From Escherichia coli (lineage in GTDB: Bacteria; Pseudomonadota; Gammaproteobacteria; Enterobacterales; Enterobacteriaceae): a DNA stretch of 20,311 nucleotides. The stretch lies in assembly GCF_003334335.1 (NCBI RefSeq), contig NZ_QOWQ01000053.1; one strand, 5' to 3'. The notes under the pieces are model-generated. The model searched no databases. It was not told the origin of the DNA and saw only the letters and a program-made list of their open reading frames with translations. Shown one piece after another: positions 127 to 13,178 of the stretch. Each line of letters starts with the position of its first letter. Positions within the stretch are counted from its first letter, which is position 1. A program made the translations under genes and the position numbers.

Positions 127-2352
127 GTGCTGGATTTAGCGCCATTAGGCATTGAGCCAATCTGTTATCTGACAGAAGAAATCAGTAATCAACTTTTGGC
201 GAAATATATCTGGTATTCAAAACACATCACGGTTAGCCATGAAGAAAGTACTACCAACCTGTTGGCAAGGATGGGTTTTCAACGACGGATCGCTGGTACA
301 TGTATTAAAGCTCCCGAAGCGGTAGTTGAGGCATGGCTAAATGAAGATTATTCAACCTTACTAAGTGAATTTAAGGTGTTTCATTCACCTACCGGGCATT
401 ATTGGCAGTTGGGGATTTTGACAACATTGCCGCTGGAGAAAGCAGTAAAAGCATGGAATGCCCTTACCCTATCTCCACATACCGATACCGAATACGCCAT
501 GTTACATTTTGGACTCAAAGGGTTACCTGGGTTAGTAAACTCACTTGCACGCTATCCACAAGAAGCCTTGCCCATCACGAATTACTTCGCAGCGAGTGAG
601 CTGGCTCCTGCCGTCGCCCGTGCCTTCAACAAACTGAAAACGCTACGCGAAAACGCCCGTAGCTGGCTGTTGAAATACCCGGAACATGCCCTTACCGGCC
701 TGCTGCCTGCGGCGCTCGGCAAAGCCGGTGAAGCACAGGATAACGCCCGCGCTGCCTTGCGTATGCTTACCGAAAACGGTCATCAGCCATTACTGCAAGA
801 AATCGCCCGACGTTATAACCAGCCGGAAGTAACCGATGCGGTGAACGCTCTGCTTGCGCTCGATCCCTTAGATAATCACCCGACAAAAATCCCCACTCTT
901 CCGGCCTTTTATCAGCCATCGCTCTGGACGCGCCCGGTATTAAAAGCAAATGCCCAATCACTGCCAGATAGCGCCCTCCTCCACCTCGGTGAAATGCTCC
1001 GCTTCCCTCAGGAAGAGGCTCTGTATCCGGGATTATTGCAGGTGAAAGACGTCTGTTCCGCCGACTCACTGGCGGGATTTGCCTGGGATCTGTTTACCGC
1101 CTGGCAGACCGCTGGCGCGCCGTCGAAAGAGAGTTGGGCGTTCACTGCGTTAGGCGTTCTCGGTAACGATGACACCGCCCGCAAACTGACGCCATTAATA
1201 CGCGCCTGGCCTGGTGAATCCCAGCATAAACGCGCCACCGTTGGGTTGGATATTCTCGCTGCTATCGGTAGTGATATCGCCCTTATGCAGCTTAACGGCA
1301 TCGCCCAGAAACTGAAATTCAAAGCATTACAGGAGCGGGCAAAAGAAAAAATTGCCGACATTGCCGAGAGCCGCGAACTCACGGTGGCGGAGCTTGAAGA
1401 TCGGTTAGCACCGGATCTCGGTCTGGATGATAACGGTTCGCTGCTGCTGGATTTTGGCCCACGGCAGTTCACCGTCAGCTTTGATGAAACCTTAAAACCG
1501 TTTGTGCGTGATGTTTCCGGCAGCCGCCTGAAAGACCTGCCCAAACCGAACAAAAGCGATGATGAAACGCGGGCGAACGATGCGGTTAACCGCTACAAAT
1601 TGCTGAAAAAAGATGCGCGTACCATCGCCGCCCAGCAGGTAGCAAGGCTGGAATCCGCCATGTGCCTGCGCCGCCGCTGGTCGCTGGAAAACTTCCAGCT
1701 CTTCCTGGTTGAGCATCCGCTGGTTCGTCACTTAACCCGCCGTCTGATTTGGGGCGTTTATAGCGCCGAAAACCAGCTACTGGCTTGCTTTCGCGTAGCA
1801 GAAGATAACAGCTACAGCACCGCTGACGATGATCTTTTCACCCTGCCGGAAGGCGATATCTCTATCGGCACTCCTCACGTTCTGGAAATATCACCAACGG
1901 ATGCTGCCGCCTTTGGTCAGCTTTTTGCCGACTACGAACTGCTACCACCGTTCCGCCAGCTCGACCGTAACAGCTACGCCCTGACAGAAGCCGAGCGCAA
2001 TGCCAGTGAACTGACCCGCTGGGCAGGCAGAAAATGCCCGAGTGGTCGGGTCATGGGGCTGGCGAATAAAGGCTGGATAAAGGGCGAACCACAGGATGGA
2101 GGCTGGATCGGATGGATGATCAAACCTTTGGGTCGCTGGTCGTTAATCATGGAAATCGACGAAGGTTTTGCGGTGGGTATGTCACCAGCCGAACTTAGCG
2201 CTGAGCAGCTCTTAAGCAAGCTGTGGTTATGGGAAGGCAAAGCGGAAAGCTATGGCTGGGGGAGTAATTCAACACAGGAAGCGCAGTTCTCCGTACTCGA
2301 TGCCATCACCGCCAGCGAGCTAATTAACGATATTGAAGCCCTGTTTGAATAA
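127..2352 (+). CDS. molR: Large DUF4132-family protein, tandem paralog of YehI (MolR/YehH-like); possibly the 3' part of a disrupted longer gene
   Basis: Open 741-codon frame from GTG at 127 to TAA at 2350-2352. Its C-terminal half aligns motif for motif with the C-terminal half of the next ORF (GEMLRF, FAWDLFTAWQ.AGAP, DFGPRQFTV.FDE, RRWSL, FADYE..PPFRQL). All three plus-strand frames contain stops within positions 1-80, so no longer upstream frame is continuous here. Gene symbol is from recall of K-12 gene order. Confidence 0.65.
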   Translation: MLDLAPLGIEPICYLTEEISNQLLAKYIWYSKHITVSHEESTTNLLARMGFQRRIAGTCIKAPEAVVEAWLNEDYSTLLSEFKVFHSPTGHYWQLGILTTLPLEKAVKAWNALTLSPHTDTEYAMLHFGLKGLPGLVNSLARYPQEALPITNYFAASELAPAVARAFNKLKTLRENARSWLLKYPEHALTGLLPAALGKAGEAQDNARAALRMLTENGHQPLLQEIARRYNQPEVTDAVNALLALDPLDNHPTKIPTLPAFYQPSLWTRPVLKANAQSLPDSALLHLGEMLRFPQEEALYPGLLQVKDVCSADSLAGFAWDLFTAWQTAGAPSKESWAFTALGVLGNDDTARKLTPLIRAWPGESQHKRATVGLDILAAIGSDIALMQLNGIAQKLKFKALQERAKEKIADIAESRELTVAELEDRLAPDLGLDDNGSLLLDFGPRQFTVSFDETLKPFVRDVSGSRLKDLPKPNKSDDETRANDAVNRYKLLKKDARTIAAQQVARLESAMCLRRRWSLENFQLFLVEHPLVRHLTRRLIWGVYSAENQLLACFRVAEDNSYSTADDDLFTLPEGDISIGTPHVLEISPTDAAAFGQLFADYELLPPFRQLDRNSYALTEAERNASELTRWAGRKCPSGRVMGLANKGWIKGEPQDGGWIGWMIKPLGRWSLIMEIDEGFAVGMSPAELSAEQLLSKLWLWEGKAESYGWGSNSTQEAQFSVLDAITASELINDIEALFE

Positions 2353-2361
2353 GGAAAGAGC

Positions 2362-5300
2362 ATGGACAAGGAATTACCGTGGCTGGCGGATAACGCCCAA
2401 CTGGAACTGAAATATAAAAAAGGCAAAACACCACTCAGTCATCGCAAATGGCCGGGCGAACCGGTGCCTGTTATCACTGAAAGCATCATTCAGACACTGG
2501 GTGATAAATTGCTACAAAAAGCTGAGAAGAAAAAAAACATTGTCTGGCGTTATGAAAATTTTTCACTGGAGTGGCAGTCCGCCATCACGCAGGCCATCAA
2601 CTTGATCGGCGAACACAAACCCTCAATCCCGGCCCGGACAATGGCGGCGCTAGTCTGTATCGCGCAAAATGACAGCCAACAGTTGCTCGACGAAATCGTC
2701 CAACAAGAGGGACTGGAATATGCGACTGAGGTGGTGATTGCACGCCAGTTTATTACACGATGTTATGAGAGTGATCCTCTGCTAGTGACATTGCAGTATC
2801 AGGACGAGGATTATGGCTATGGTTATCGCTCAGAAACCTATAACGAATTCGATCTCCGACTGCGTAAGCATCTCTCTCTGGCAGAGGAAAGCAGCTGGCA
2901 GCGTTGCGCCGACAAACTCATTGCCGCACTGCCAGGAATACCCAAAATTCGCCGTCCTTTTATTGCACTACTCCTCCCGGAAAAACCTGAAATAGCCAAT
3001 GAACTCGCCAGTCTTGAAAGCTCCCGGTCAAGTCTCCATTCAAAGGAGTGGTTAAAGGTCATTGCTACTGATAATACGGCGGTAAAAAAACTCGAACGAT
3101 ACTGGGGCCTGGACGTATTTAGCGATCGCGAAGCCAGCTACATGTCACAAGAAAACCGCTTCGGCTACGCGGCCTGCGCCTCCCTTTTGCGCGAACAAGG
3201 ACTGGCAGCCGTTCCGCGCCTGGCAATGTATGCCCATAAAGAAGATTGCGGCAGTCTGCTGGTACAAATTAACCATCCGCAAGTCATCCGCACCTTGCTA
3301 CTGGTGGCTGATAAAAACAAACCCAGCCTGCAACGTGTGGCTAAATACAGTAAAAACTTCCCCCACGCGACGCTCGCCGCACTGGCAGAACTGCTGGCGT
3401 TAAAAGAACCACCAGCCCGCCCAGGTTATCCAATCATCGAAGACAAAAAGCTGCCTGCACAGCAAAAAGCACGCGATGAATACTGGCGTACGCTGTTACA
3501 AACGCTGATGGCATCGCAGCCACAACTGGCAGCAGAAGTGATGCCGTGGTTAAGTACTCAAGCCAGGGCAGTGCTGAATAGTTATTTATCGGCACCGCCA
3601 AAACCGGTTATTGATAGCACCGATAACAGCAGTCTGCCTGAAATGCTCGTTTCACCACCGTGGCGTAGTAAGAAAAAAATGACAGCTCCACGTCTTGATT
3701 TGGCACCGCTCGAATTAACTCCGCAAATTTACTGGCAACCAGGCGAACAAGAGAGGCTTGCCGCCACTGAATCTGCCCGTTATTTCAGCACGGAATCTCT
3801 TGCGGAACGCATGGAACAAAAAAGTGGACGAGTTGTATTACAGGAACTGGGTTTTGGGGATGATGTATGGCTGTTTCTGAATTATATACTCCCCGGAAAA
3901 CTGGATGCTGCACGCAATTCACTCATTGTTCAGTGGCATTACTACCAGGGGCGGGTTGAAGAGATCCTGAATGGCTGGAACTCCCCGCAAGCACAATTAG
4001 CAGAACAGGCGCTCCGCAGCGGTCACATAGAAGCGTTAATTAACATATGGGAAAATGACAACTTCTCACGTTATCGTCCGGAAAAGAGTGTCTGGAACCT
4101 GTATTTATTGGCACAGTTGCCGCGTGAGATGGCTTTGACCTTCTGGCTGCGTATCATTGAGAAAAAGCATCTGTTCGCGGGTGAGGACTATTTTCTCAGT
4201 ATCCTCGGATTGGATGCGCTACCAGGTCTGCTGTTGGCTTTTTCACATCGTCCAAAAGAAACATTTCCGTTAATTTTAAATTTTGGCGCAACAGAACTGG
4301 CGCTGCCTGTTGCCCGCGTCTGGCGACGTTTCGCGGCGCAGCGTGATCTGGCTCGCCAGTGGATTTTACAATGGCCGGAACATACGGCTAGTGCACTTAT
4401 CCCTCTTGTCTTTACCAAACCCAGCGATAATAGCGAAGCCGCATTACTTGCCCTGCGTTTACTGTACGAACAGGGACATGGCGAATTGCTACAAACCGTG
4501 GCAAACCGCTGGCAGCGTACAGATGTATGGTCTGCCCTGGAGCAGTTGCTTAAACAGGGTCCAATGGACATTTACCCGGCACGCATTCCAAAAGCCCCTG
4601 ATTTCTGGCATCCGGCAATGTGGTCCAGGCCTCGACTTATCACTAATAATCAGCCTGTTACCGGTGACGCTCTGGAAATTATCGGCGAAATGCTGCGCTT
4701 TACCCAGGGGGGACGTTTTTATAGCGGGCTGGAACAACTGAAAACGTTCTGCCAGCCACAAACGCTGGCAGCTTTTGCCTGGGATCTCTTCACTGCGTGG
4801 CAACAAGCTGGTGCCCCCGCAAAAGACAACTGGGCATTTCTGGCGTTAAGTCTCTTTGGTGACGAAAGCACGGCACGGGATCTGACGACACAGATCCTCG
4901 CCTGGCCACAAGAAGGCAAATCTGCCCGTGCTGTCAGCGGCCTGAACATCCTTACCCTGATGAATAATGATATGGCGCTGATACAGCTGCATCATATATC
5001 GCAACGGGCTAAATCCCGCCCCTTACGTGATAACGCGGCGGAATTTCTTCAGGTGGTCGCAGAAAATCGCGGGCTAAGCCAGGAAGAGCTAGCGGACAGA
5101 TTAGTCCCAACCCTGGGCCTTGATGATCCGCAGGCGTTGAGTTTTGATTTTGGTCCCCGGCAGTTTACCGTTCGCTTCGATGAAAACCTCAACCCGGTTA
5201 TCTTTGATCAGCAAAACGTTCGCCAGAAAAGCGTTCCCCGGTTGCGCGCCGATGACGATCAACTGAAAGCGCCCGAGGCACTGGCCCGACTAAAAGGGCT

Positions 5301-5985
5301 AAAAAAAGATGCTACTCAGGTGAGCAAAAACCTGCTCCCGCGTCTTGAAGCTGCCCTACGTACCACCCGACGCTGGTCGCTGGCAGATTTTCATTCTCTG
5401 TTTGTTAATCATCCCTTTACCCGTCTGGTTACCCAGCGATTAATATGGGTGGTTTATCCGGCAAATGAACCGCGTTGTTTACTCAAAGCCTTTCGTGTGG
5501 CCGCAGAGGGGGAGTTCTGCAATGCGCAAGATGAGCCAATTGACCTGCCTGCGGACGCTCTGATTGGCATTGCCCACCCGTTAGAAATGACAGTAGAAAT
5601 GCGCAGTGAATTTGCACAGCTTTTTGCCGATTACGAAATTATGCCGCCTTTTCGCCAGTTGTCGCGCCGCACGGTGCTGCTCACACCTGACGAGTCAACC
5701 AGTAACAGCCTGACTCGCTGGGAAGGTAAATCCGCTACCGTTGGGCAGCTTATGGGAATGCGATACAAAGGCTGGGAGTCAGGCTATGAGGACGCATTTG
5801 TGGGCGAGTACCGGCTGGTCCTTAAGTTTTCACCCGGTTTTAACCACTACAATGTTGATAGCAAAGCGTTAATGAGCTTCCGTTCTCTTCGAGTGTACCG
5901 TGACAATAAATCCGTCACTTTTGCCGAACTTGATGTGTTTGATTTGAGTGAGGTGTTAAGCGCACCTGACGTCATTTTCCATTAA
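2362..5985 (+). CDS. yehI: Large DUF4132-family protein YehI (1207 aa), function unknown
   Basis: ATG at 2362 lies 9 nt after the upstream stop and is preceded by AAGGAAAGAG (RBS). Long uninterrupted frame; size and sequence match my recollection of E. coli YehI; paralogous to the upstream ORF. Confidence 0.85.
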   Translation: MDKELPWLADNAQLELKYKKGKTPLSHRKWPGEPVPVITESIIQTLGDKLLQKAEKKKNIVWRYENFSLEWQSAITQAINLIGEHKPSIPARTMAALVCIAQNDSQQLLDEIVQQEGLEYATEVVIARQFITRCYESDPLLVTLQYQDEDYGYGYRSETYNEFDLRLRKHLSLAEESSWQRCADKLIAALPGIPKIRRPFIALLLPEKPEIANELASLESSRSSLHSKEWLKVIATDNTAVKKLERYWGLDVFSDREASYMSQENRFGYAACASLLREQGLAAVPRLAMYAHKEDCGSLLVQINHPQVIRTLLLVADKNKPSLQRVAKYSKNFPHATLAALAELLALKEPPARPGYPIIEDKKLPAQQKARDEYWRTLLQTLMASQPQLAAEVMPWLSTQARAVLNSYLSAPPKPVIDSTDNSSLPEMLVSPPWRSKKKMTAPRLDLAPLELTPQIYWQPGEQERLAATESARYFSTESLAERMEQKSGRVVLQELGFGDDVWLFLNYILPGKLDAARNSLIVQWHYYQGRVEEILNGWNSPQAQLAEQALRSGHIEALINIWENDNFSRYRPEKSVWNLYLLAQLPREMALTFWLRIIEKKHLFAGEDYFLSILGLDALPGLLLAFSHRPKETFPLILNFGATELALPVARVWRRFAAQRDLARQWILQWPEHTASALIPLVFTKPSDNSEAALLALRLLYEQGHGELLQTVANRWQRTDVWSALEQLLKQGPMDIYPARIPKAPDFWHPAMWSRPRLITNNQPVTGDALEIIGEMLRFTQGGRFYSGLEQLKTFCQPQTLAAFAWDLFTAWQQAGAPAKDNWAFLALSLFGDESTARDLTTQILAWPQEGKSARAVSGLNILTLMNNDMALIQLHHISQRAKSRPLRDNAAEFLQVVAENRGLSQEELADRLVPTLGLDDPQALSFDFGPRQFTVRFDENLNPVIFDQQNVRQKSVPRLRADDDQLKAPEALARLKGLKKDATQVSKNLLPRLEAALRTTRRWSLADFHSLFVNHPFTRLVTQRLIWVVYPANEPRCLLKAFRVAAEGEFCNAQDEPIDLPADALIGIAHPLEMTVEMRSEFAQLFADYEIMPPFRQLSRRTVLLTPDESTSNSLTRWEGKSATVGQLMGMRYKGWESGYEDAFVGEYRLVLKFSPGFNHYNVDSKALMSFRSLRVYRDNKSVTFAELDVFDLSEVLSAPDVIFH

Positions 5986-6046
5986 AAACACAGCGGGCAG
6001 TGATGCAACTGCCCGTTATCAACACGACTTACCAGCGGGGAAAGCG

Positions 6047-6364
6047 ATGATCGTGCAAAAAGAGCTGGTTGCTATTTACGATTATGAGGTCCCTGTACCT
6101 GAAAATCCGTTTTCCTTCAGACTTGAGATCAATAAATGCTCTGAATTATTTACAGGTTCCGTCTATCGACTGGAGCGATTCCGGCTACGTCCAACATTTC
6201 ATCAACGTGATCGAGAAGATGCTGACCCGCTAATAAATGATGCGTTGATTTATATAAGAGATGAGTGTATTGATGAGCGGAAATTACGAGGTGAATCACC
6301 TGAAACTGTAATAGCAATTTTTAATCGTGAACTACAGAATATATTCAACCAAGAAATAGAATAA
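6047..6364 (+). CDS. yehK: Small protein YehK (105 aa), function unknown
   Basis: ATG at 6047 preceded by GGGGA 6 nt upstream. 105-codon ORF that is visibly more AT-rich than its flanking genes. Followed by an intrinsic terminator. Confidence 0.7.
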   Translation: MIVQKELVAIYDYEVPVPENPFSFRLEINKCSELFTGSVYRLERFRLRPTFHQRDREDADPLINDALIYIRDECIDERKLRGESPETVIAIFNRELQNIFNQEIE

Positions 6365-6533
6365 TATACTCTAAATAATTCAAATTGGTCCGATCCGGCG
6401 CAACGTCCCAATGGCCTGGATTATAAATCTCATTATCTTAATTGCAACGGGGTCCAGCCGTGGTTATAATTCGTTCGTTGGAACACGATGTTGCACAGGC
6501 TGCGGTGTTGGGCCTGAAAATAGTAAATAAAAG

Positions 6534-6559
6534 AACCTGCCTCACCAGCAGGTTTTTTT
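6534..6559 (+). terminator. Rho-independent terminator after yehK
   Basis: Stem AACCTGC (6534-6540), loop CTCACCA, stem GCAGGTT (6548-6554), then a T-run (TTTTTTTATTT). An A-rich tract (AAATAAAAG) lies upstream, so it could act in both directions. Confidence 0.7.
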
Positions 6560-6670
6560 ATTTACTGTGATCTGCTTTCCAGATATTTTCCGCTCAAACA
6601 ACTAATGCGCCAAACATTTATTGCGCGTAAAATATCGTTTATTTCATTAATACATTTCAGGGATGAATAT

Positions 6671-7759
6671 ATGTCACCGCAGAATAATCATCTGCAGCGT
6701 CCGCCTGCTGCTGTGTTATACGCCGATGAACTGGCAAAATTAAAACAAAATGATAACGCACCTTGCCCGCCCGGTTGGCAGTTAAGTTTGCCTGCGGCCC
6801 GTGCTTTTATCCTTGGCGATAGCGCGCAAAATATTAGCCGTAAAGTGGTGATTAGTCCCTCCGCTGTCGAACGCATGTTAGTCACTCTTGCCACCGGGCG
6901 CGGTTTGATGTTGGTGGGGGAACCTGGCACCGCAAAATCTCTCCTGTCTGAATTACTGGCAACCGCTATTAGCGGCGATGCCGGGTTAACCATCCAGGGC
7001 GGCGCATCTACTACCGAAGATCAAATCAAGTACGGCTGGAACTACGCCCTGCTTATCAATCATGGTCCATCAACGGAAGCGCTGGTCCCTGCCCCGCTTT
7101 ACCAGGGAATGCGCGACGGCAAAATCGTCCGTTTTGAAGAGATAACGCGTACACCGCTGGAAGTGCAAGACTGTCTGTTAGGTATGCTTTCTGACAGGGT
7201 GATGACGGTGCCGGAACTCACTGGTGAAGCCAGTCAGCTCTATGCGCGAGAAGGCTTTAATATTATTGCCACTGCCAATACCCGCGATCGCGGCGTCAAT
7301 GAAATGAGTGCTGCGCTAAAGCGTCGCTTCGATTTTGAAACTGTCTTTCCGATTATGGATTTCGCCCAGGAGCTGGAGCTTGTCGCCAGTGCTTCGGCGC
7401 GTTTGCTGGCCCATAGCGGTATTCCGCATAAAGTGCCTGACGCGGTACTGGAGTTACTGGTCCGCACCTTCCGCGATCTGCGTGCCAACGGCGAAAAGAA
7501 AACGTCAATGGATACACTAACAGCGATTATGTCCACCGCTGAAGCCGTGAACGTGGCCCACGCCGTAGGCGTCCGCGCCTGGTTTTTAGCGAATCGCGCA
7601 GGTGAGCCAGCCGACCTGGTGGACTGCATTGCCGGAACCATCGTCAAAGATAACGAAGAAGATCGCGCTCGTCTGCGCCGTTACTTCGAACAACGAGTCG
7701 CCACACATAAAGAAGCTCACTGGCAGGCTTATTATCAAGCCCGCCACCGCCTGCCGTGA
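6671..7759 (+). CDS. yehL: MoxR-type AAA+ ATPase YehL (362 aa)
   Basis: Walker A GEPGTAKS and a Walker B-like hhhhFEE (IVRFEEITR) are present. ATG at 6671 preceded by AGGGA. The ORF-track start at 6605 has no RBS and would add 22 residues. Confidence 0.85.
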   Translation: MSPQNNHLQRPPAAVLYADELAKLKQNDNAPCPPGWQLSLPAARAFILGDSAQNISRKVVISPSAVERMLVTLATGRGLMLVGEPGTAKSLLSELLATAISGDAGLTIQGGASTTEDQIKYGWNYALLINHGPSTEALVPAPLYQGMRDGKIVRFEEITRTPLEVQDCLLGMLSDRVMTVPELTGEASQLYAREGFNIIATANTRDRGVNEMSAALKRRFDFETVFPIMDFAQELELVASASARLLAHSGIPHKVPDAVLELLVRTFRDLRANGEKKTSMDTLTAIMSTAEAVNVAHAVGVRAWFLANRAGEPADLVDCIAGTIVKDNEEDRARLRRYFEQRVATHKEAHWQAYYQARHRLP

Positions 7760-7769
7760 GGAAAGATGC

Positions 7770-10049
7770 ATGAGCGAGCCGTTAATTGTCGGCATCCGGC
7801 ATCATAGTCCGGCCTGCGCCCGGCTGGTGAAATCGTTAATCGAAAGCCAGCGGCCACGATACGTATTGATTGAAGGCCCGGCTGATTTTAATGACCGGGT
7901 AGACGAACTGTTTTTAGCCCACCAGCTTCCGGTAGCTATTTACAGTTATTGCCAGTATCAGGACGGTGCAGCCCCCGGGCGTGGTGCCTGGACGCCATTT
8001 GCTGAATTTTCGCCGGAGTGGCAGGCGCTACAAGCCGCACGTCGTATTCAGGCACAAACTTACTTCATCGATTTGCCTTGCTGGGCGCAGAGTGAAGAAG
8101 TGGACGATTCGCCTGATACGCAAGAGGAAAGCCAGGCCTTGCTGCTGCGTGCCACCTGCATGGATAACAGCGACACCCTGTGGGATCACTTGTTCGAAGA
8201 TGAAAGCCAGCAAACTGCATTACCCTCTGCACTGGCGCACTATTTTGCCCAACTGCGGGGCGACTCCCCCGGAGATGCTCTCAATCGTCTGCGCGAAGCC
8301 TTTATGGCCCGCTGGATTGGATGGGCGATGCAGCAAAATAATGGCGACGTGTTAGTTGTCTGCGGTGGCTGGCACGCTCCGGTACTGGCAAAAATGTGGC
8401 GCGAATGCCCGCAGGAAATTAACACGCCAGAATTGCCGTCGCTGGCAGATGCCGTTACAGGTTGTTATCTCACCCCCTACAGTGAAAAGCGCCTTGATGT
8501 GCTGGCAGGATACCTTTCCGGAATGCCTGCCCCGGTCTGGCAAAACTGGTGCTGGCAGTGGGGCTTACAGCAGGCGGGAGAACAACTGCTAAAAACGGTT
8601 CTCACCCGTTTGCGCCAGCACAAGTTGCCTGCTTCGACCGCGGATATGGCTGCCGCTCATCTGCATGCGATGGCACTGGCACAGTTGCGCGGTCATACAC
8701 TACCGTTACGCACTGACTGGCTGGATGCCATAGCAGGATCGCTGATTAAAGAAGCCCTGAATGCGCCGTTGCCGTGGAGCTATCGCGGCGTTATTCATCC
8801 CGACACCGATCCGATTCTGCTAACGTTGATAGACACATTAGCGGGTGACGGATTCGGTAAACTTGCCCCTTCTACGCCACAACCTCCTCTGCCAAAAGAT
8901 GTCACCTGCGAACTGGAACGTACCGCAATCTCCCTTCCGGCGGAGCTTACCTTAAATCGCTTTAACCCCAATGGACTAGCGCAAAGTCAGGTGTTACATC
9001 GGCTGGCAATACTGGAGATCCCAGGGATTGTGCGCCAGCAGGGAAGCACACTGACACTTGCAGGCAACGGTGAAGAACACTGGAAATTAACCCGCCCGCT
9101 TAGCCAGCATGCGGCATTGATTGAGGCCGCCTGCTTTGGTGCCACACTCCAGGAAGCCGCACGCCATAAATTAGAAGCCGATATGCTGGACGCGGGTGGA
9201 ATCGGCAGTATCACCACATGTCTTAGCCAGGCGGCGTTAGCGGGTCTGGCGTCCTTCAGTCAACAATTACTGGAGCAACTCACATTATTAATCGCCCAGG
9301 AAAATCAATTTGCCGAAATGGGCCAGGCGCTGGAAGTGCTATATGCCTTATGGCGGCTGGATGAAATTAGCGGTATGCAAGGCGCGCAGATATTACAAAC
9401 GACGTTATGCGCGGCTATCGATCGCACGCTGTGGCTGTGTGAATCTAACGGCAGACCGGATGAAAAGGAGTTTCACGCTCACCTGCATAGCTGGCAAGCG
9501 CTTTGCCATATTCTGCGCGATCTACATAGCGGCGTTAATTTATCCGGCGTTTCGCTTTCTGCGGCGGTAGCCTTACTGGAGCGACGCAGTCAGGCGATTC
9601 ATGCCCCGGCGCTGGATCGCGGCGCGGTTCTTGGCGCACTAATGCGTCTGGAACATCCCAACGCCAGTGCCGAAGCGGCGCTGACGATGCTGGCGCAGTT
9701 ATCCCCGGCACAATCCGGCGAGGCGCTGCACGGTTTGCTGGCATTAGCCCGTCATCAACTGGCCTGTCAGCCGGCATTTATCGCCGGTTTCAGCAGTCAT
9801 TTAAATCAACTAAGTGATGCCGATTTTACCAATGCCCTGCCCGATTTACGCGCGGCAATGGCCTGGCTACCGCCACGAGAACGCGGGACGCTGGCGCATC
9901 AGGTGCTTGAGCATTATCAACTGGCGCAACTTCCCGTTTCGGCACTGCAAATGCCGTTGCATTGTCCACCGCAAGCCATTGCACATCATCAACAACTCGA
10001 ACAGCAGGCACTGGCATCGCTGCAACACTGGGGAGTTTTCCATGTCTGA
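7770..10049 (+). CDS. yehM: YehM, large protein (759 aa) of unknown function
   Basis: ATG at 7770 is 10 nt after the yehL stop, with GAGGA immediately upstream. The ORF-track start at 7602 would overlap yehL by 158 nt. The stop overlaps the yehP start (ATGTCTGA). Confidence 0.8.
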   Translation: MSEPLIVGIRHHSPACARLVKSLIESQRPRYVLIEGPADFNDRVDELFLAHQLPVAIYSYCQYQDGAAPGRGAWTPFAEFSPEWQALQAARRIQAQTYFIDLPCWAQSEEVDDSPDTQEESQALLLRATCMDNSDTLWDHLFEDESQQTALPSALAHYFAQLRGDSPGDALNRLREAFMARWIGWAMQQNNGDVLVVCGGWHAPVLAKMWRECPQEINTPELPSLADAVTGCYLTPYSEKRLDVLAGYLSGMPAPVWQNWCWQWGLQQAGEQLLKTVLTRLRQHKLPASTADMAAAHLHAMALAQLRGHTLPLRTDWLDAIAGSLIKEALNAPLPWSYRGVIHPDTDPILLTLIDTLAGDGFGKLAPSTPQPPLPKDVTCELERTAISLPAELTLNRFNPNGLAQSQVLHRLAILEIPGIVRQQGSTLTLAGNGEEHWKLTRPLSQHAALIEAACFGATLQEAARHKLEADMLDAGGIGSITTCLSQAALAGLASFSQQLLEQLTLLIAQENQFAEMGQALEVLYALWRLDEISGMQGAQILQTTLCAAIDRTLWLCESNGRPDEKEFHAHLHSWQALCHILRDLHSGVNLSGVSLSAAVALLERRSQAIHAPALDRGAVLGALMRLEHPNASAEAALTMLAQLSPAQSGEALHGLLALARHQLACQPAFIAGFSSHLNQLSDADFTNALPDLRAAMAWLPPRERGTLAHQVLEHYQLAQLPVSALQMPLHCPPQAIAHHQQLEQQALASLQHWGVFHV

Positions 10050-11178
10050 ACTGAACGATCTTCTGACCACCCGTGAGCTACAACGCTGGCGATTAATTCT
10101 TGGCGAAGCGGCAGAAACGACGCTTTGTGGGCTGGATGACAACGCCCGGCAGATAGACCACGCGCTGGAGTGGCTGTATGGGCGCGATCCTGAACGGCTC
10201 CAGCGTGGTGAACGCTCCGGTGGATTAGGTGGCTCAAATCTCACCACCCCTGAGTGGATCAACAGTATTCACACGCTGTTTCCGCAACAGGTGATTGAGC
10301 GGCTGGAAAGCGATGCCGTACTGCGCTACGGCATTGAAGATGTGGTGACAAATCTCGACGTGCTGGAACGTATGCAGCCTTCCGAAAGCCTGCTACGCGC
10401 CGTTTTGCACACCAAACATCTGATGAATCCCGAAGTACTGGCTGCCGCCCGCCAGATAGTGCGCCAGGTTGTTGAAGAAATTATGGCGCGACTGGCAAAG
10501 GAAGTTCGCCAGGCTTTTTCTGGTGTCCGCGATCGCCGTCGCCGTTCATTTATTCCACTGGCGCGAAACTTTGATTTCAAAAGTACTCTGCGCGCCAACC
10601 TGCAACACTGGCACCCGCAACACGGCAAGTTGTATATCGAATCCCCCCGCTTTAACAGCCGCATTAAACGCCAAAGCGAACAATGGCAACTGGTCTTACT
10701 GGTTGATCAAAGCGGATCGATGGTCAATTCGGTGATCCACTCTGCGGTGATGGCGGCCTGTTTGTGGCAGTTACCCGGCATTCGTACCCATCTGGTGGCG
10801 TTTGACACAAGCGTCGTTGATCTCACGGCAGACGTTGCCGATCCGGTAGAGTTATTAATGAAAGTACAGTTGGGCGGCGGGACCAATATCGCCAGTGCCG
10901 TGGAGTATGGTCGGCAACTTATTGAACAACCAGCGAAAAGCGTCATTATCCTCGTGAGCGATTTTTACGAAGGGGGTTCATCATCATTACTGACGCATCA
11001 GGTGAAAAAGTGTGTCCAGAGCGGCATCAAAGTGCTGGGACTGGCAGCGCTCGATAGCACCGCAACACCTTGCTATGACCGCGATACGGCCCAGGCGCTG
11101 GTTAATGTCGGCGCACAAATAGCCGCCATGACGCCGGGCGAGCTGGCATCATGGCTTGCGGAGAATCTTCAGTCATGA
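10042..11178 (+). CDS. yehP: von Willebrand factor A (vWA) domain protein YehP (378 aa)
   Basis: MIDAS-like DxSxS motif (LVDQSGSM) followed by a G-G-T-N element, typical of vWA folds. Start ATG at 10042 overlaps the yehM stop by 8 nt. Confidence 0.85.
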   Translation: MSELNDLLTTRELQRWRLILGEAAETTLCGLDDNARQIDHALEWLYGRDPERLQRGERSGGLGGSNLTTPEWINSIHTLFPQQVIERLESDAVLRYGIEDVVTNLDVLERMQPSESLLRAVLHTKHLMNPEVLAAARQIVRQVVEEIMARLAKEVRQAFSGVRDRRRRSFIPLARNFDFKSTLRANLQHWHPQHGKLYIESPRFNSRIKRQSEQWQLVLLVDQSGSMVNSVIHSAVMAACLWQLPGIRTHLVAFDTSVVDLTADVADPVELLMKVQLGGGTNIASAVEYGRQLIEQPAKSVIILVSDFYEGGSSSLLTHQVKKCVQSGIKVLGLAALDSTATPCYDRDTAQALVNVGAQIAAMTPGELASWLAENLQS

Positions 11179-13178
11179 ATTCACTACGTCCGGAATTATT
11201 AGAACTGACACCACAGGCCCTGACGGCGTTAAGCAATGCCGGTTTTGTTAAGCGCAGTCTTAAGGAACTGGAAAATGGCAACGTCCCGGAGATCAGCCAT
11301 GAGAACGACGCTTTAATCGCCACCTTCAGTGACGGTGTCCGTACCCAGCTGGCGAACGGCCAGGCACTGAAAGAGGCTCAGTGCAGTTGCGGGGCCAACG
11401 GTATGTGCCGTCATCGCGTGATGCTGGTGTTAAGTTATCAACGACTTTGTGCCACCACTCAGTCTACGGAAAAAGAAGAAGAGTGGGATCCGGCAATCTG
11501 GCTGGAAGAACTGGCTACCCTTCCCGATGCTACCCGCAAACGCGCACAGGCACTGGTCGCTAAAGGCATCACCATTGAGTTGTTCTGTACGCCGGGCGAA
11601 ATTCCCTCTGCCCGCTTACCGATGAGCGATGTGCGTTTTTATTCCCGTAGCAGCATTCGTTTCGCCCGTTGTGATTGTATTGAAGGCACACTTTGCGAAC
11701 ATGTCGTACTGGCAGTACAGGCCTTTGTCCAGGCAAAAGCGCAGCAAGCGGAATTGACTCATTTAATCTGGCAGATGCGCAGCGAACACGTCACATCATC
11801 TGACGATCTGTTTGCCAGCGAAGAAGGCAAAACGTGTCGTCAATATGTTCAGCAACTAAGCCAGGCATTATGGCTGGGCGGCATCAGCCAGCCGCTTATT
11901 CACTACGAGGCCGCTTTCAGCCGCGCGCAGCAAGCAGCGGAACGCTGCAACTGGCGATGGGTGAGTGAATCGCTACGGCAACTGCGCGCCAGCGTTGATG
12001 CCTTCCACGCCCGCGCCAGCCACTATCATGCCGGAGAATGCTTACGTCAGCTTGCGGCATTAAACAGTCGATTAAATTGCGCACAAGAGATGGCGCGGCG
12101 CGACAGTGTTGGTGAAGTTCCTCCTGTGCCGTGGCGCACGGTCGTTGGCTCTGGCATTGCCGGAGAAGCAAAGCTTGATCATCTGCGGCTGGTGTCTTTA
12201 GGTATGCGTTGCTGGCAGGATATTGAGCATTATGGTTTACGCATCTGGTTTACCGATCCCGACACCGGCAGTATTTTGCACCTTTCGCGCAGTTGGCCGC
12301 GAAGTGAACAGGAAAACTCACCGGCAGCTACGCGTCGGCTGTTTAGTTTTCAGGCTGGCGCACTGGCGGGTGGGCAAATTGTTTCACAAGCAGCAAAACG
12401 CAGTGCCGATGGCGAGCTGCTGTTAGCTACCCGCAACCGCTTAAGCAGCGTTGTGCCGCTGTCGCCTGATGCCTGGCAAATGTTGAGCGCGCCGTTACGC
12501 CAGTCGGGCATTGTGGCTTTGCGGGAATATTTACGCCAGCGTCCCCCCTCCTGCATACGGCCTCTTAATCAGGTCGATAACTTATTTATTCTGCCGGTCG
12601 CTGAGTGTATTTCGCTCGGTTGGGATAGCAGCCGCCAGACGCTGGATGCGCAGGTAATCAGCGGCGAAGGTGAAGATAATCTGCTGACGTTATCACTGCC
12701 AGCCTCAGCCAGCGCGCCTTATGCCATTGAACGCATGGCGGCGCTTTTGCAACAAACAGACGACCCCGTGTGTCTGGTTTCTGGCTTTGTCAGTTTTGTT
12801 GATGGGCAATTGACACTGGAACCACAGGTAATGATGACAAAGACTCGTGCCTGGGCGCTGGACGCAGAAACTGCGCCTGTGGTGGCATCACTACCTTCTG
12901 TCAGCGTTCTGCCTGTGCCGTCTACTGCTCATCAGTTGCTGATGCGCTGCCAGGCATTACTTATTCAACTGCTCCATAACGGCTGGCGCTATCAGGAACA
13001 GAGTGCTATTGGTCAGGCAGAGTTGCTGGCGAATGACCTCACCGCGGTGGGTTTTTATCGGCTGGCACATGTATTGGGACAATTTCGTAATACAGAAAGC
13101 GAGGCACGGGTAGAAGCAATGAATAACTGCGTTTTGCTGTGCGAACAATTATTCCCCATGCTTCAGCAACAAGGATGA
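11175..13178 (+). CDS. yehQ: SWIM zinc-finger protein YehQ (667 aa as called here)
   Basis: Two CxC...CxH signatures (CSCGANGMCRHRVM and CDCIEGTLCEHVV) characteristic of SWIM zinc fingers. ATG at 11175 overlaps the yehP stop (ATGA). GGAG lies 11 nt upstream. The alternative in-frame ATG at 11151 is less well placed. Confidence 0.8.
   Translation: MNSLRPELLELTPQALTALSNAGFVKRSLKELENGNVPEISHENDALIATFSDGVRTQLANGQALKEAQCSCGANGMCRHRVMLVLSYQRLCATTQSTEKEEEWDPAIWLEELATLPDATRKRAQALVAKGITIELFCTPGEIPSARLPMSDVRFYSRSSIRFARCDCIEGTLCEHVVLAVQAFVQAKAQQAELTHLIWQMRSEHVTSSDDLFASEEGKTCRQYVQQLSQALWLGGISQPLIHYEAAFSRAQQAAERCNWRWVSESLRQLRASVDAFHARASHYHAGECLRQLAALNSRLNCAQEMARRDSVGEVPPVPWRTVVGSGIAGEAKLDHLRLVSLGMRCWQDIEHYGLRIWFTDPDTGSILHLSRSWPRSEQENSPAATRRLFSFQAGALAGGQIVSQAAKRSADGELLLATRNRLSSVVPLSPDAWQMLSAPLRQSGIVALREYLRQRPPSCIRPLNQVDNLFILPVAECISLGWDSSRQTLDAQVISGEGEDNLLTLSLPASASAPYAIERMAALLQQTDDPVCLVSGFVSFVDGQLTLEPQVMMTKTRAWALDAETAPVVASLPSVSVLPVPSTAHQLLMRCQALLIQLLHNGWRYQEQSAIGQAELLANDLTAVGFYRLAHVLGQFRNTESEARVEAMNNCVLLCEQLFPMLQQQG

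What the first reader, a model, noticed from the sequence alone, without database searches (positions are those of the whole stretch)
5986..6570. AT-rich orphan gene yehK framed by a hairpin and a strong terminator
yehK (6047-6364) is visibly more AT-rich than yehI and yehL and encodes a small acidic protein with no recognisable motif. A perfect 8-bp hairpin without a U-tract (CGGGCAGT/ACTGCCCG, 5994-6015) sits between yehI and yehK, and an intrinsic terminator (6534-6559) follows about 170 bp after the yehK stop. This looks like an independently acquired insert separating the DUF4132 genes from yehLMPQ. The 170-bp gap before the terminator could hold an unannotated small RNA or regulatory element.
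Basis: seen in the sequence. Interest (0 to 1): 0.3.

Follow-up and report, generated by a model that had tools for sequence, protein, structure and literature searches.

The report
Orphan antitoxin RNA beside orphan immunity-like gene
The stretch between yehI and yehL in this E. coli holds two leftovers of bacterial toxin systems. One is the already-described small RNA OrzP, whose toxin gene has been deleted. The other is yehK, which looks like a stand-alone copy of a protein family that elsewhere sits right behind Rhs toxin genes.

Summary
yehK (6047-6364) has GC 0.38 and GC3 0.28, against 0.50-0.57 in its neighbours, and a pI of 4.8. The 8-bp hairpin (5994-6015) and the terminator (6534-6559) are both there.

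The terminator is not yehK's. It ends the orzP small-RNA gene (about 6477-6560), which matches Rfam RF02083 at 101 bits and has its own promoter. The window is an "orz-only" scar of the zor-orz type I toxin-antitoxin locus: a deletion removed the 29-aa toxin gene. The antitoxin RNA, both divergent promoters and about 30 nt of the toxin leader remain. This is published (Shore et al. 2024), and 34% of complete E. coli genomes carry the same junction.

The yehK result seems not to be described. yehK occurs only in Escherichia and is missing from every yeh cluster in other genera. It evolves as a coding gene (dN/dS about 0.2). It is homologous (hhalign 99.3%) to a family absent from Pfam, NCBIfam and PADLOC. 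In 27 of 60 loci, members of that family lie directly downstream of a small cysteine-rich Rhs C-terminal domain. yehK is therefore most likely an orphan Rhs-toxin immunity gene.

The hairpin's stem is conserved across the genus. Its function is unknown.

The parts
5994..6015 (+). Perfect 8-bp stem-loop, 8 nt after the yehI stop codon and 31 nt before the yehK start. It has no U-tract on the + strand. On the - strand it is followed by CTGTGTTTTT.
   Evidence: The stem is conserved in 11 Escherichia sequences spanning eight lineages (one G-U change in E. marmotae), while the 6-nt loop varies. The - strand T-run is not conserved outside E. coli and its close relatives.
6047..6364 (+). yehK, 105 aa, AT-rich and acidic. 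It is found only in Escherichia and is most likely an orphan Rhs-toxin immunity-like protein.
   Evidence: ORF and composition. (homologues only in Escherichia and Shigella). (dN/dS 0.15-0.27). (wider family; hhalign 99.3%, E = 1.2e-20). (AlphaFold2 model, pLDDT 92). (Rhs neighbourhood of family members).
6383..6384 (.). Deletion junction. Relative to strains with a full locus, 394-471 bp are missing here: an ERIC element, the zor terminator, the zor ORF and most of the zor 5' UTR.
   Evidence: Alignment with strains E5 and AVS0225. A 40-nt probe across the junction matches 1839 of 5426 complete E. coli genomes, once each.
6384..6413 (-). Remnant of about 30 nt from the start of the zor toxin mRNA 5' UTR. 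It contains neither the toxin ORF nor the Orz pairing site.
   Evidence: Alignments. This agrees with the 27-29 nt reported for orz-only loci (PMC11264685). The start at 6413 is inferred from the -10 position.
6420..6447 (-). Relic zor promoter, still intact (TTGCAA, 16-nt spacer, TATAAT). It now points into the 3' end of yehK, antisense.
   Evidence: Both hexamers are invariant in 10 orz copies. PMC11264685 Table 3 reports 99.7-100% conservation in orz-only loci. An in-vitro run-off signal on the reverse strand of this intergenic probe set is reported in PMC3141248.
6442..6470 (+). orzP promoter (TTGCAA, 17-nt spacer, TATAAT). Its -35 hexamer is the same palindromic 6 bp used by the divergent zor promoter.
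6477..6560 (+). orzP-type small-RNA gene, an orphan type I antitoxin of about 84 nt. It differs by two SNPs from the MG1655/O157 orzP sequence.
   Evidence: Rfam RF02083 match at 6484-6559: 101.3 bits (gathering score 60), E = 2.4e-17, full model. Alignment. Fold -28.5 kcal/mol, z = -3.25. Published Term-seq 3' ends lie 111 and 150 nt upstream of yehL, which map to window 6560 and 6521 (PMC7815308). A northern blot in MG1655 is in PMC11264685. The 5' end at 6477 is inferred from the -10 position.
6534..6559 (+). Intrinsic terminator of orzP. Its extended A-tract/T-tract arms (6522-6566) make it look bidirectional. It would also stop read-through from yehK.
   Evidence: and the Term-seq 3' end.

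Best explanation
The interval is a composite of three things.

(1) Hairpin. A genus-conserved stem-loop lies just after yehI. It most likely acts on the yehHI-yehK mRNA as a 3'-end or processing structure. It is not a terminator on the + strand.

(2) yehK. This is a real protein-coding gene found only in Escherichia. It belongs to an undescribed family of roughly 100-135-aa proteins. In other bacteria, members of this family are encoded immediately downstream of a small cysteine-rich C-terminal domain of Rhs proteins, or further along arrays of small genes behind Rhs genes. That is the position of immunity genes in polymorphic-toxin loci. In E. coli no toxin is attached, so yehK would be an orphan immunity gene. 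It would bind and neutralise an incoming Rhs effector of that type from competitors, or it is a slowly decaying relic of such a cassette.

(3) The zor-orz scar. The remaining 170 bp and the terminator are what is left of the zor-orz type I toxin-antitoxin locus after a roughly 0.4-0.5 kb deletion removed the ZorP toxin ORF and the Orz pairing site. Both divergent promoters survive, along with about 30 nt of the zor leader and a complete orzP small-RNA gene with its terminator. OrzP is transcribed from its own promoter, ends at about 6560, and has no cognate target in this window.

Shown here: the sequence anatomy, the Rfam membership, the absence of the toxin, the synteny, the YehK family homology and the Rhs association. 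Taken from the literature: OrzP expression. Inferred: the immunity function of YehK, the role of the hairpin, and activity of the relic zor promoter.

Confidence differs by part: about 0.95 for the orz-only scar, about 0.9 for yehK being an Escherichia-specific coding insert that belongs to the wider family, about 0.55 for the immunity function of E. coli YehK, and about 0.3 for the proposed role of the hairpin. The single figure given is a compromise across these.
For: OrzP:
- Rfam hit at 101.3 bits against a gathering score of 60.
- Sigma-70-like promoter 14 nt upstream of the hit.
- The 13-nt seed GTGCAACATCGTG that pairs with zorP leaders in full loci is intact in this Orz. The best complement elsewhere in the 20-kb window is only 9-10 nt.
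- The toxin ORF MDTLTQKLTVLIAVLELLVALLRLIDLLK is present in strain E5 and absent here.
- The same junction occurs in 1839 of 5426 genomes.
- Literature: about 30% of E. coli are orz-only, and OrzPmg was detected by northern blot (PMC11264685). Term-seq 3' ends lie at -111 and -150 from yehL (PMC7815308).

yehK:
- No yehK in the yeh loci of non-Escherichia species.
- dN/dS 0.15-0.27, against 0.02-0.05 for yehL and 0.08-0.17 for yehI.
- A profile search of 1.84 billion proteins gave 53 hits, including full-length proteins of roughly 100-135 aa.
- hhalign between the Escherichia profile and the toxin-adjacent subfamily: 99.3%, E = 1.2e-20, 103 columns.
- The AlphaFold2 model rises from pLDDT 54 to 92 when the family alignment is used.
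- 27 of 60 loci (26 of 55 with at least 250 nt of upstream sequence) have the Cys-rich Rhs C-terminal domain within 450 nt upstream on the same strand, usually 6-60 nt away.
- Members 42-46% identical to YehK sit in Rhs arrays. One of them (L095) lies behind a frameshifted remnant of the same toxin domain.
Against: - No toxin, and no remnant of one, is detectable next to E. coli yehK.
- The Cys-rich toxin domain was not found in any Enterobacterales protein, so the supposed threat is unidentified.
- The immunity function rests on gene neighbourhood only.
- The metagenome sample was seeded with one motif ([YF]R[LVI]QP[TS]FPQ), so it is biased towards one subfamily.
- About half of the family loci show no Rhs neighbour. 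Many of those contigs are short.
- yehK is frameshifted in some E. coli strains, E5 and AVS0225. This fits relaxed selection.
- For the hairpin, no functional data were found.
Confidence: 0.65

Rival explanations
1. One reading: yehK is a single self-contained acquired cassette. The hairpin and the terminator are its boundaries, and the 170 bp after it are its 3' UTR.
For: The AT-rich segment runs from about 6000 to 6700. The terminator would also stop yehK read-through. No consensus promoter was found for yehK itself.
Against: The 170 bp contain two complete divergent promoters and a full Rfam-scoring small-RNA gene. Other strains have 0.4-1.2 kb more sequence, with toxin genes, at exactly this point. 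Hairpins also occur after the DUF4132 gene in genera that lack yehK.
Confidence: 0.1
2. yehK is a lineage-specific accessory subunit of the yehHI / yehLMPQ (DUF4132, MoxR-type AAA, DUF5682, vWA, SWIM) system. It is not an immunity gene.
For: It sits inside the cluster on the same strand, 61 nt after yehI, with no promoter of its own detected. It is kept in all Escherichia species examined.
Against: It is absent from every other yeh cluster sampled, including Klebsiella with 90% YehL identity. Its homologues elsewhere are next to Rhs genes, not yeh genes. Its composition is foreign to the cluster.
Confidence: 0.1
3. yehK is a decaying relic with no present function. The ORF survives only because of recent descent.
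For: There are frameshifts in some E. coli strains. Many truncated variants appear in the protein database. No cognate toxin is known in enterics.
Against: The ORF is intact with dN/dS about 0.2 even at dS about 0.9 (E. coli against E. albertii), which is purifying selection over genus-level time. The C-terminal half is almost invariant.
Confidence: 0.2
4. The orphan OrzP and/or the relic zor promoter have taken on a new role. OrzP might regulate other mRNAs in trans. The zor promoter might drive an RNA antisense to yehK that reads towards the hairpin at 6015-5994.
For: Promoters and small RNA are 99-100% conserved in orz-only strains (PMC11264685). A reverse-strand in-vitro run-off signal is reported for this intergenic probe set (PMC3141248). 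The hairpin followed by CTGTGTTTTT scores as terminator-like on the - strand.
Against: High conservation may only reflect a recent single deletion, since the junction is 99-100% identical in 1828 of the 1839 genomes. No target was identified. The - strand T-run is not conserved across the genus. No - strand 3' end near yehK or yehI appears in the held Term-seq tables. The run-off ratio is modest and the probe set covers the whole 618 bp.
Confidence: 0.2

Closest known systems
OrzP / OrzPmg, the orphan antitoxin small RNA of the zor-orz type I toxin-antitoxin locus (Rfam RF02083; Fozo 2010 PMC2887945; Wen 2014 PMC3919570; Shore 2024 PMC11264685)
   Same: It lies in the same chromosomal position between yehK and yehL, with the same promoters, terminator and pairing seed. 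It has the same deletion junction as MG1655 and is 97.6% identical over the transcript.
   Different: Two SNPs inside the transcript relative to MG1655/O157 orzP: C for T, and G for A, in the middle stem region. Otherwise none.
tisB-istR1 and shoB-ohsC (type I toxin-antitoxin pairs with a divergently transcribed antitoxin RNA)
   Same: In the full zor-orz locus the small RNA is encoded divergently from the toxin and pairs with a long toxin 5' UTR. This is stated in PMC2887945.
   Different: Here the toxin half has been deleted, so no toxin-antitoxin function remains in cis.
Rhs (polymorphic toxin) immunity proteins and orphan immunity genes, for example RhsI proteins and TriX of Xenorhabdus bovienii (PDB 8s2m)
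DUF5064 and DUF3081 proteins (AlphaFold database)
   Same: They share a similar predicted fold of four antiparallel strands followed by a C-terminal helix. Foldseek gives E = 6.6e-5 and 5.5e-3, TM 0.56-0.65.
   Different: Both families are themselves uncharacterised. Sequence identity is 22-26%, and no Pfam hit was obtained with any YehK-family member.

Membership tests
Rfam RF02083 OrzO-P antitoxin RNA | Covariance-model score above the curated gathering threshold over the full model | tested here: met
   101.3 bits against 60, model positions 1-76 of 76, E = 2.4e-17
Rfam RF02083 OrzO-P antitoxin RNA | Own sigma-70 promoter and intrinsic terminator giving an RNA of about 80-85 nt | tested here: met
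   TTGCAA-17-TATAAT at 6442-6470 and terminator at 6534-6559. Published 3' end lies 111 nt upstream of yehL, which is window 6560.
Rfam RF02083 OrzO-P antitoxin RNA | The RNA is actually expressed | not testable with these tools
   A northern blot in MG1655, which has the same locus, is reported in PMC11264685. This strain has not been examined.
Complete type I toxin-antitoxin locus (zor-orz) | A small hydrophobic toxin ORF (29-aa Zor) encoded divergently from the small RNA | tested here: not met
   No Zor ORF in 5950-6680. The alignment shows it deleted relative to E5 and AVS0225.
Complete type I toxin-antitoxin locus (zor-orz) | A stretch in the toxin 5' UTR complementary to the small RNA | tested here: not met
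   The best complement in the window is 9-10 nt, against 12-13 nt contiguous in full loci.
Polymorphic-toxin (Rhs) immunity protein | Gene immediately downstream of the toxin C-terminal domain, on the same strand, and recurrently paired with the same toxin domain | tested here: met
   This holds for the family: 27 of 60 loci carry the same Cys-rich Rhs C-terminal domain, typically 6-60 nt upstream. It does NOT hold for E. coli yehK itself, which follows yehI with no toxin remnant.
Polymorphic-toxin (Rhs) immunity protein | Homology of the E. coli protein to the toxin-adjacent members | tested here: met
   hhalign 99.3%, E = 1.2e-20, 103 aligned columns. hmmsearch E-values 1e-9 to 1e-4 against 1.84 billion proteins.
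Polymorphic-toxin (Rhs) immunity protein | Binds its cognate toxin and neutralises it | not testable with these tools
   This needs co-expression or pull-down experiments.
Rho-independent terminator (for the hairpin at 5994-6015) | GC-rich stem immediately followed by a U-tract | tested here: not met
   On the + strand the stem is followed by TTATCAACAC. On the - strand it is followed by CTGTGTTTTT, which has a 5-nt spacer and is not conserved in other Escherichia species.
yehHI / yehLMPQ gene cluster | The gene co-occurs with the cluster across taxa | tested here: not met
   yehK is absent from the yeh clusters of every non-Escherichia species among the 25 yehL loci sampled.

The most novel reading that the evidence does not exclude
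YehK would be the E. coli representative of a previously undescribed immunity-protein family. Its partner would be an equally undescribed toxin: a cysteine-rich Rhs C-terminal domain of about 65 aa with consensus W.CTASCNV..G.G...AC.AAKR.ATQSAP.G.Y.RHCQC.C. Escherichia would have kept yehK for genus-level time as an orphan immunity gene against attack by foreign Rhs effectors. In a third of E. coli, the toxin-less zor promoter next to it would now read antisense into this gene.
Probability: 0.5. Interest if true: 0.55.

Novelty: new member of a known kind. Interest (0 to 1): 0.35.

Why it matters
The small-RNA part changes nothing. It confirms that the window carries the published orz-only scar, and that Rfam and Term-seq data already explain the "strong terminator".

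The yehK part is useful. It gives a K-12 gene of unknown function a concrete, testable hypothesis: orphan immunity to an Rhs effector. It also exposes a toxin/immunity domain pair that is missing from Pfam, NCBIfam and PADLOC. Orphan immunity genes bear on interbacterial competition in the gut.

The locus also shows two toxin-defence leftovers side by side inside an otherwise conserved operon. In other genera that operon has only a short spacer here, about 30-330 bp in the clusters sampled.

Tried and rejected
- tRNA/tmRNA scan of the window: nothing.
- Other Rfam matches in the gap (Thr, Trp and Phe leaders, STnc370) are all far below their gathering scores and only reflect the terminator.
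- The 39-aa + strand ORF at 6411-6530, with a hydrophobic N-terminus, was considered as a hidden toxin. It was rejected because its ATG exists only in the orz-only variant and it overlaps both promoters.
- The 53-aa and 55-aa - strand ORFs inside yehK have no support.
- The first AlphaFold2 run, with Escherichia-only sequences, gave pLDDT 54 and was not used.
- Foldseek against the PDB found nothing significant.
- Pfam, NCBIfam and PADLOC searches of YehK, of distant family members and of the Cys-rich toxin domain were all empty.
- A PDB sequence search with the toxin profile gave only a chance-level dsRBD hit, E = 1.3.
- PADLOC search of YehH, YehI, YehL, YehM, YehP and YehQ: no hits.
- A plasmid tblastn search found only E. 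coli yehK itself.
- Literature searches for yehK alone were swamped by author names. Searches for yehK with 'immunity protein'/'Rhs' or with 'polymorphic toxin' found no paper.
- The Thomason 2015 dRNA-seq paper is not held.
- No remnant of the Cys-rich toxin is detectable upstream of yehK in E. coli, E. albertii or E. whittamii.
- The exact source strain is not among the complete genomes. The best match over the full 20 kb is 97.9%.

Full report
**What the window is.** The window is the E. coli yehH-yehI-yehK-yehL-yehM-yehP-yehQ region. The 685 bases around the finding are 100% identical to strain 2013C-3264 and 99.3% identical to MG1655. No complete genome matches the whole 20 kb better than 97.9%.

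**Checking the observation.**
- ORF 6047-6364 encodes 105 aa and is annotated 'protein YehK' in RefSeq.
- Its GC is 0.381 and its GC3 is 0.283. The six neighbouring genes have GC3 0.50-0.57. Only 4.4% of 318-nt windows in the 20 kb are as AT-rich.
- The protein has pI 4.78. It matches nothing in Pfam, NCBIfam, PADLOC or PDB sequences.
- The hairpin CGGGCAGT-GATGCA-ACTGCCCG lies at 5994-6015. It is unique in the window and absent from 100 shuffles. It folds at -18.3 kcal/mol, z = -5.1.
- The terminator stem is at 6534-6554, with seven T's to 6559. Complementarity extends to 19-nt arms at 6522-6540 and 6548-6566, so an A-tract precedes it and a T-tract follows it.

**The 170-bp gap and the terminator.**
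- A scan of 5700-6900 against Rfam gives one match above threshold: RF02083, the OrzO-P antitoxin RNA. It covers 6484-6559 on the + strand, with 101.3 bits against a gathering score of 60, E = 2.4e-17, over the full model.
- A promoter-like site, TTGCAA-17-TATAAT, lies at 6442-6470. It puts the start near 6477 and predicts an RNA of about 84 nt ending in the terminator.
- A second, divergent promoter (TTGCAA-16-TATAAT, 6447 to 6420 on the - strand) uses the same palindromic -35 hexamer.
- E. coli strains E5 and AVS0225 carry 471 and 394 extra bases at window position 6383/6384. These hold an ERIC element, a terminator, the ORF MDTLTQKLTVLIAVLELLVALLRLIDLLK on the - strand, and its long leader. 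That ORF is the Zor toxin of the zor-orz type I toxin-antitoxin locus, described between yehI and yehL in O157:H7 (PMC2887945; PMC3919570).
- The window therefore keeps the antitoxin gene, both promoters and about 30 nt of the toxin leader. It has lost the toxin ORF and the pairing site.
- In full loci each Orz has 12-13 contiguous complementary bases in its own zor leader. In this window the best complement anywhere is 9-10 nt. The seed itself is intact and would still pair with zorP leaders of other strains.
- The transcript differs from MG1655/O157 orzP at two positions.

**This part is already published.**
- Shore et al. 2024 (PMC11264685) found that about 30% of E. coli genomes are 'orz-only' and retain 27-29 nt of the zor 5' UTR. 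They detected the RNA (OrzPmg) by northern blot in MG1655.
- orzP is now listed among the MG1655 small RNAs (PMC12306157).
- A 40-nt probe across the junction matches 1839 of 5426 complete genomes (34%), once each, almost always at 99-100% identity. This fits a single deletion event.
Adams et al. 2021 list + strand 3' ends 111 and 150 nt upstream of yehL, which map to window 6560 and 6521 (PMC7815308).
- The 'strong terminator' is therefore OrzP's, although it would also stop read-through from yehK.

**Is yehK an insert?**
- A search with YehL in one genome per species returned 25 loci.
- In the non-Escherichia clusters that have a DUF4132 gene upstream (Klebsiella, Intestinirhabdus, Erwinia, Serratia, Edaphovirga, Stenotrophomonas, Acidovorax, Trichlorobacter and others), that gene ends about 30-330 bp before yehL. 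None has a yehK.
- In every Escherichia species examined the gap is 0.7-1.6 kb and holds yehK plus one or two zor-orz units.
I could not decide whether yehK and zor-orz arrived together.
- Several other genera carry their own, non-homologous GC-rich hairpin in the short spacer after the DUF4132 gene. In Escherichia the stem of the 5994-6015 hairpin is conserved while its loop varies. I therefore read the hairpin as a conserved feature of the yehI 3' end rather than a boundary of the insert.
- On the - strand the hairpin scores as terminator-like, but that T-run is not conserved across the genus.

**Is yehK a real gene?**
- Across Escherichia species its dN/dS is 0.15-0.27, even at dS about 0.9. 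The corresponding values are 0.08-0.17 for yehI and 0.02-0.05 for yehL. It is coding and under moderate purifying selection.
- Frameshifts occur in some E. coli strains.
- A word-indexed search of 5.8 billion proteins found homologues only in Escherichia and Shigella.

**What YehK is related to.**
- A profile of the Escherichia sequences was searched, with no word index, against 1.84 billion cluster representatives. It found 53 proteins. Many are full-length matches of roughly 100-135 aa from other organisms.
- They share the motifs FRLE, G.VYR.E.YRLQPTFPQ, DD.L.YV.D and G.S..EV...F.
- A profile-profile comparison of the Escherichia set with the distant set gives 99.3% probability, E = 1.2e-20, over 103 columns.
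- With the family alignment, the AlphaFold2 model rises from pLDDT 54 to 92 (pTM 0.81). It shows four strands followed by a C-terminal helix.
- In the AlphaFold database the model matches uncharacterised proteins, including DUF5064 and DUF3081 members.

**Gene neighbourhood of the family.**
- In the first three long contigs examined, the YehK-like gene lies 9 nt to about 1 kb downstream of an RHS-repeat protein.
- A metagenome scan gave 52 more loci.
- Across all 60 loci, 27 have the same small cysteine-rich domain within 450 nt upstream on the same strand (26 of the 55 with at least 250 nt of upstream sequence). The domain is usually 6-60 nt away and usually follows the DPxGL end of an Rhs core.
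- The domain's consensus is W.CTASCNV...RVTG..G...AC.AAKR.ATQSAP.G.Y.RHCQC.C. It has no Pfam or PDB match.
- Members closer to E. coli YehK (42-46% identity) behave the same way. One is the last gene of an AT-rich array of small genes behind an Rhs gene (L096). Another follows an Rhs C-terminus/immunity pair and a frameshifted remnant of the Cys-rich domain (L095).
- Recurrent pairing of one small protein family with one variable Rhs C-terminal domain is the standard genomic signature of a toxin-immunity pair. That is established knowledge of polymorphic toxin systems. Here it is an inference and was not tested.

**What this means for E. coli yehK, and the caveats.**
- E. coli yehK has no toxin or toxin remnant upstream, so it would be an orphan immunity gene.
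- The toxin domain was not found in any Enterobacterales protein.
- The metagenome sample was seeded with one motif, so it is biased to one subfamily.
- About half of the loci show no Rhs neighbour, and many of those contigs are short.
- I found no paper linking YehK to immunity or Rhs.

**A loose end.** The relic zor promoter is intact and now faces the 3' end of yehK. An in-vitro run-off study reports a reverse-strand signal for the probe set covering window 5987-6604 (PMC3141248). No - strand 3' end near yehK or yehI appears in the held Term-seq tables. An antisense yehK RNA is possible but not shown.

**Verdict.**
The small RNA and its terminator are a known element, and they are not part of yehK.
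- The new result is the assignment of yehK to an undescribed Rhs-associated, immunity-like family.

Noticed in passing
L055 7790-7991, L042 6790-6991, L038 220-414 and 24 further loci (related loci, not the window): An undescribed cysteine-rich domain of about 65 aa at the C-terminus of RHS proteins. Its consensus is W.CTASCNV..G.G...AC.AAKR.ATQSAP.G.Y.RHCQC.C. It has no Pfam or PDB match. Short stand-alone homologues occur in Nocardia, cyanobacterial and alphaproteobacterial records.
   Followed up: partly
window 6442-6447: The divergent orz and zor promoters share a single palindromic -35 hexamer, TTGCAA. The two promoters are therefore back to back on the same 6 bp, and that hexamer is invariant in 10 copies from six Escherichia lineages.
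   Followed up: partly
window 127-13178 (yehH, yehI, yehL, yehM, yehP, yehQ); L009-L031: The DUF4132/WGR + MoxR-type AAA + DUF5682 + vWA + SWIM gene set recurs with 60-76% YehL identity in distant lineages (Stenotrophomonas, Acidovorax, Trichlorobacter, Holophagales, Thermoanaerobaculia). This patchy distribution looks like horizontal transfer. None of the six proteins matches a PADLOC defence model.
   Followed up: partly
L012 5965-6000, L015 and L016 5935-6000, L011 5935-6000, L030 5770-5830: Other genera have their own, non-homologous GC-rich hairpin in the short spacer between the DUF4132 gene and yehL. An intercistronic stem-loop seems to be a recurring feature of this operon.
   Followed up: no
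L006 3288-3985 (E. coli SW07091): In this strain an IS1 element sits directly before yehL. The 3' part of the DUF4132 gene, yehK and orz are all missing. This is a second, independent way of losing the whole insert.
   Followed up: no
L002 1897-2080 and L003 1897-2002: Strains with a full zor-orz unit have an ERIC-like repeat between yehK and the zor terminator. In strain E5 it carries an extra internal insertion of about 78 nt. The identification as ERIC is from memory of the consensus and was not tested.
   Followed up: no
window 5086-5985 (3' part of yehI): The window's yehI is 1207 aa and lacks 9 nt present in ten other Escherichia sequences compared. In strain 2013C-3264, whose yehK-orz segment is identical to the window, yehI is annotated as frameshifted. 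The window therefore comes from a different, mosaic strain.
   Followed up: no
window 6521: Published Term-seq lists a second + strand 3' end 150 nt upstream of yehL. It falls inside OrzP, just before the terminator hairpin, and may be a processed or degraded 3' end (PMC7815308).
   Followed up: no
P0080 and P0110 (related proteins): Two members of the YehK family are tandem fusions of two YehK-like domains (219 and 222 aa). P0075 is a 2094-aa protein reported with 28 matching stretches. It was not inspected.
   Followed up: no
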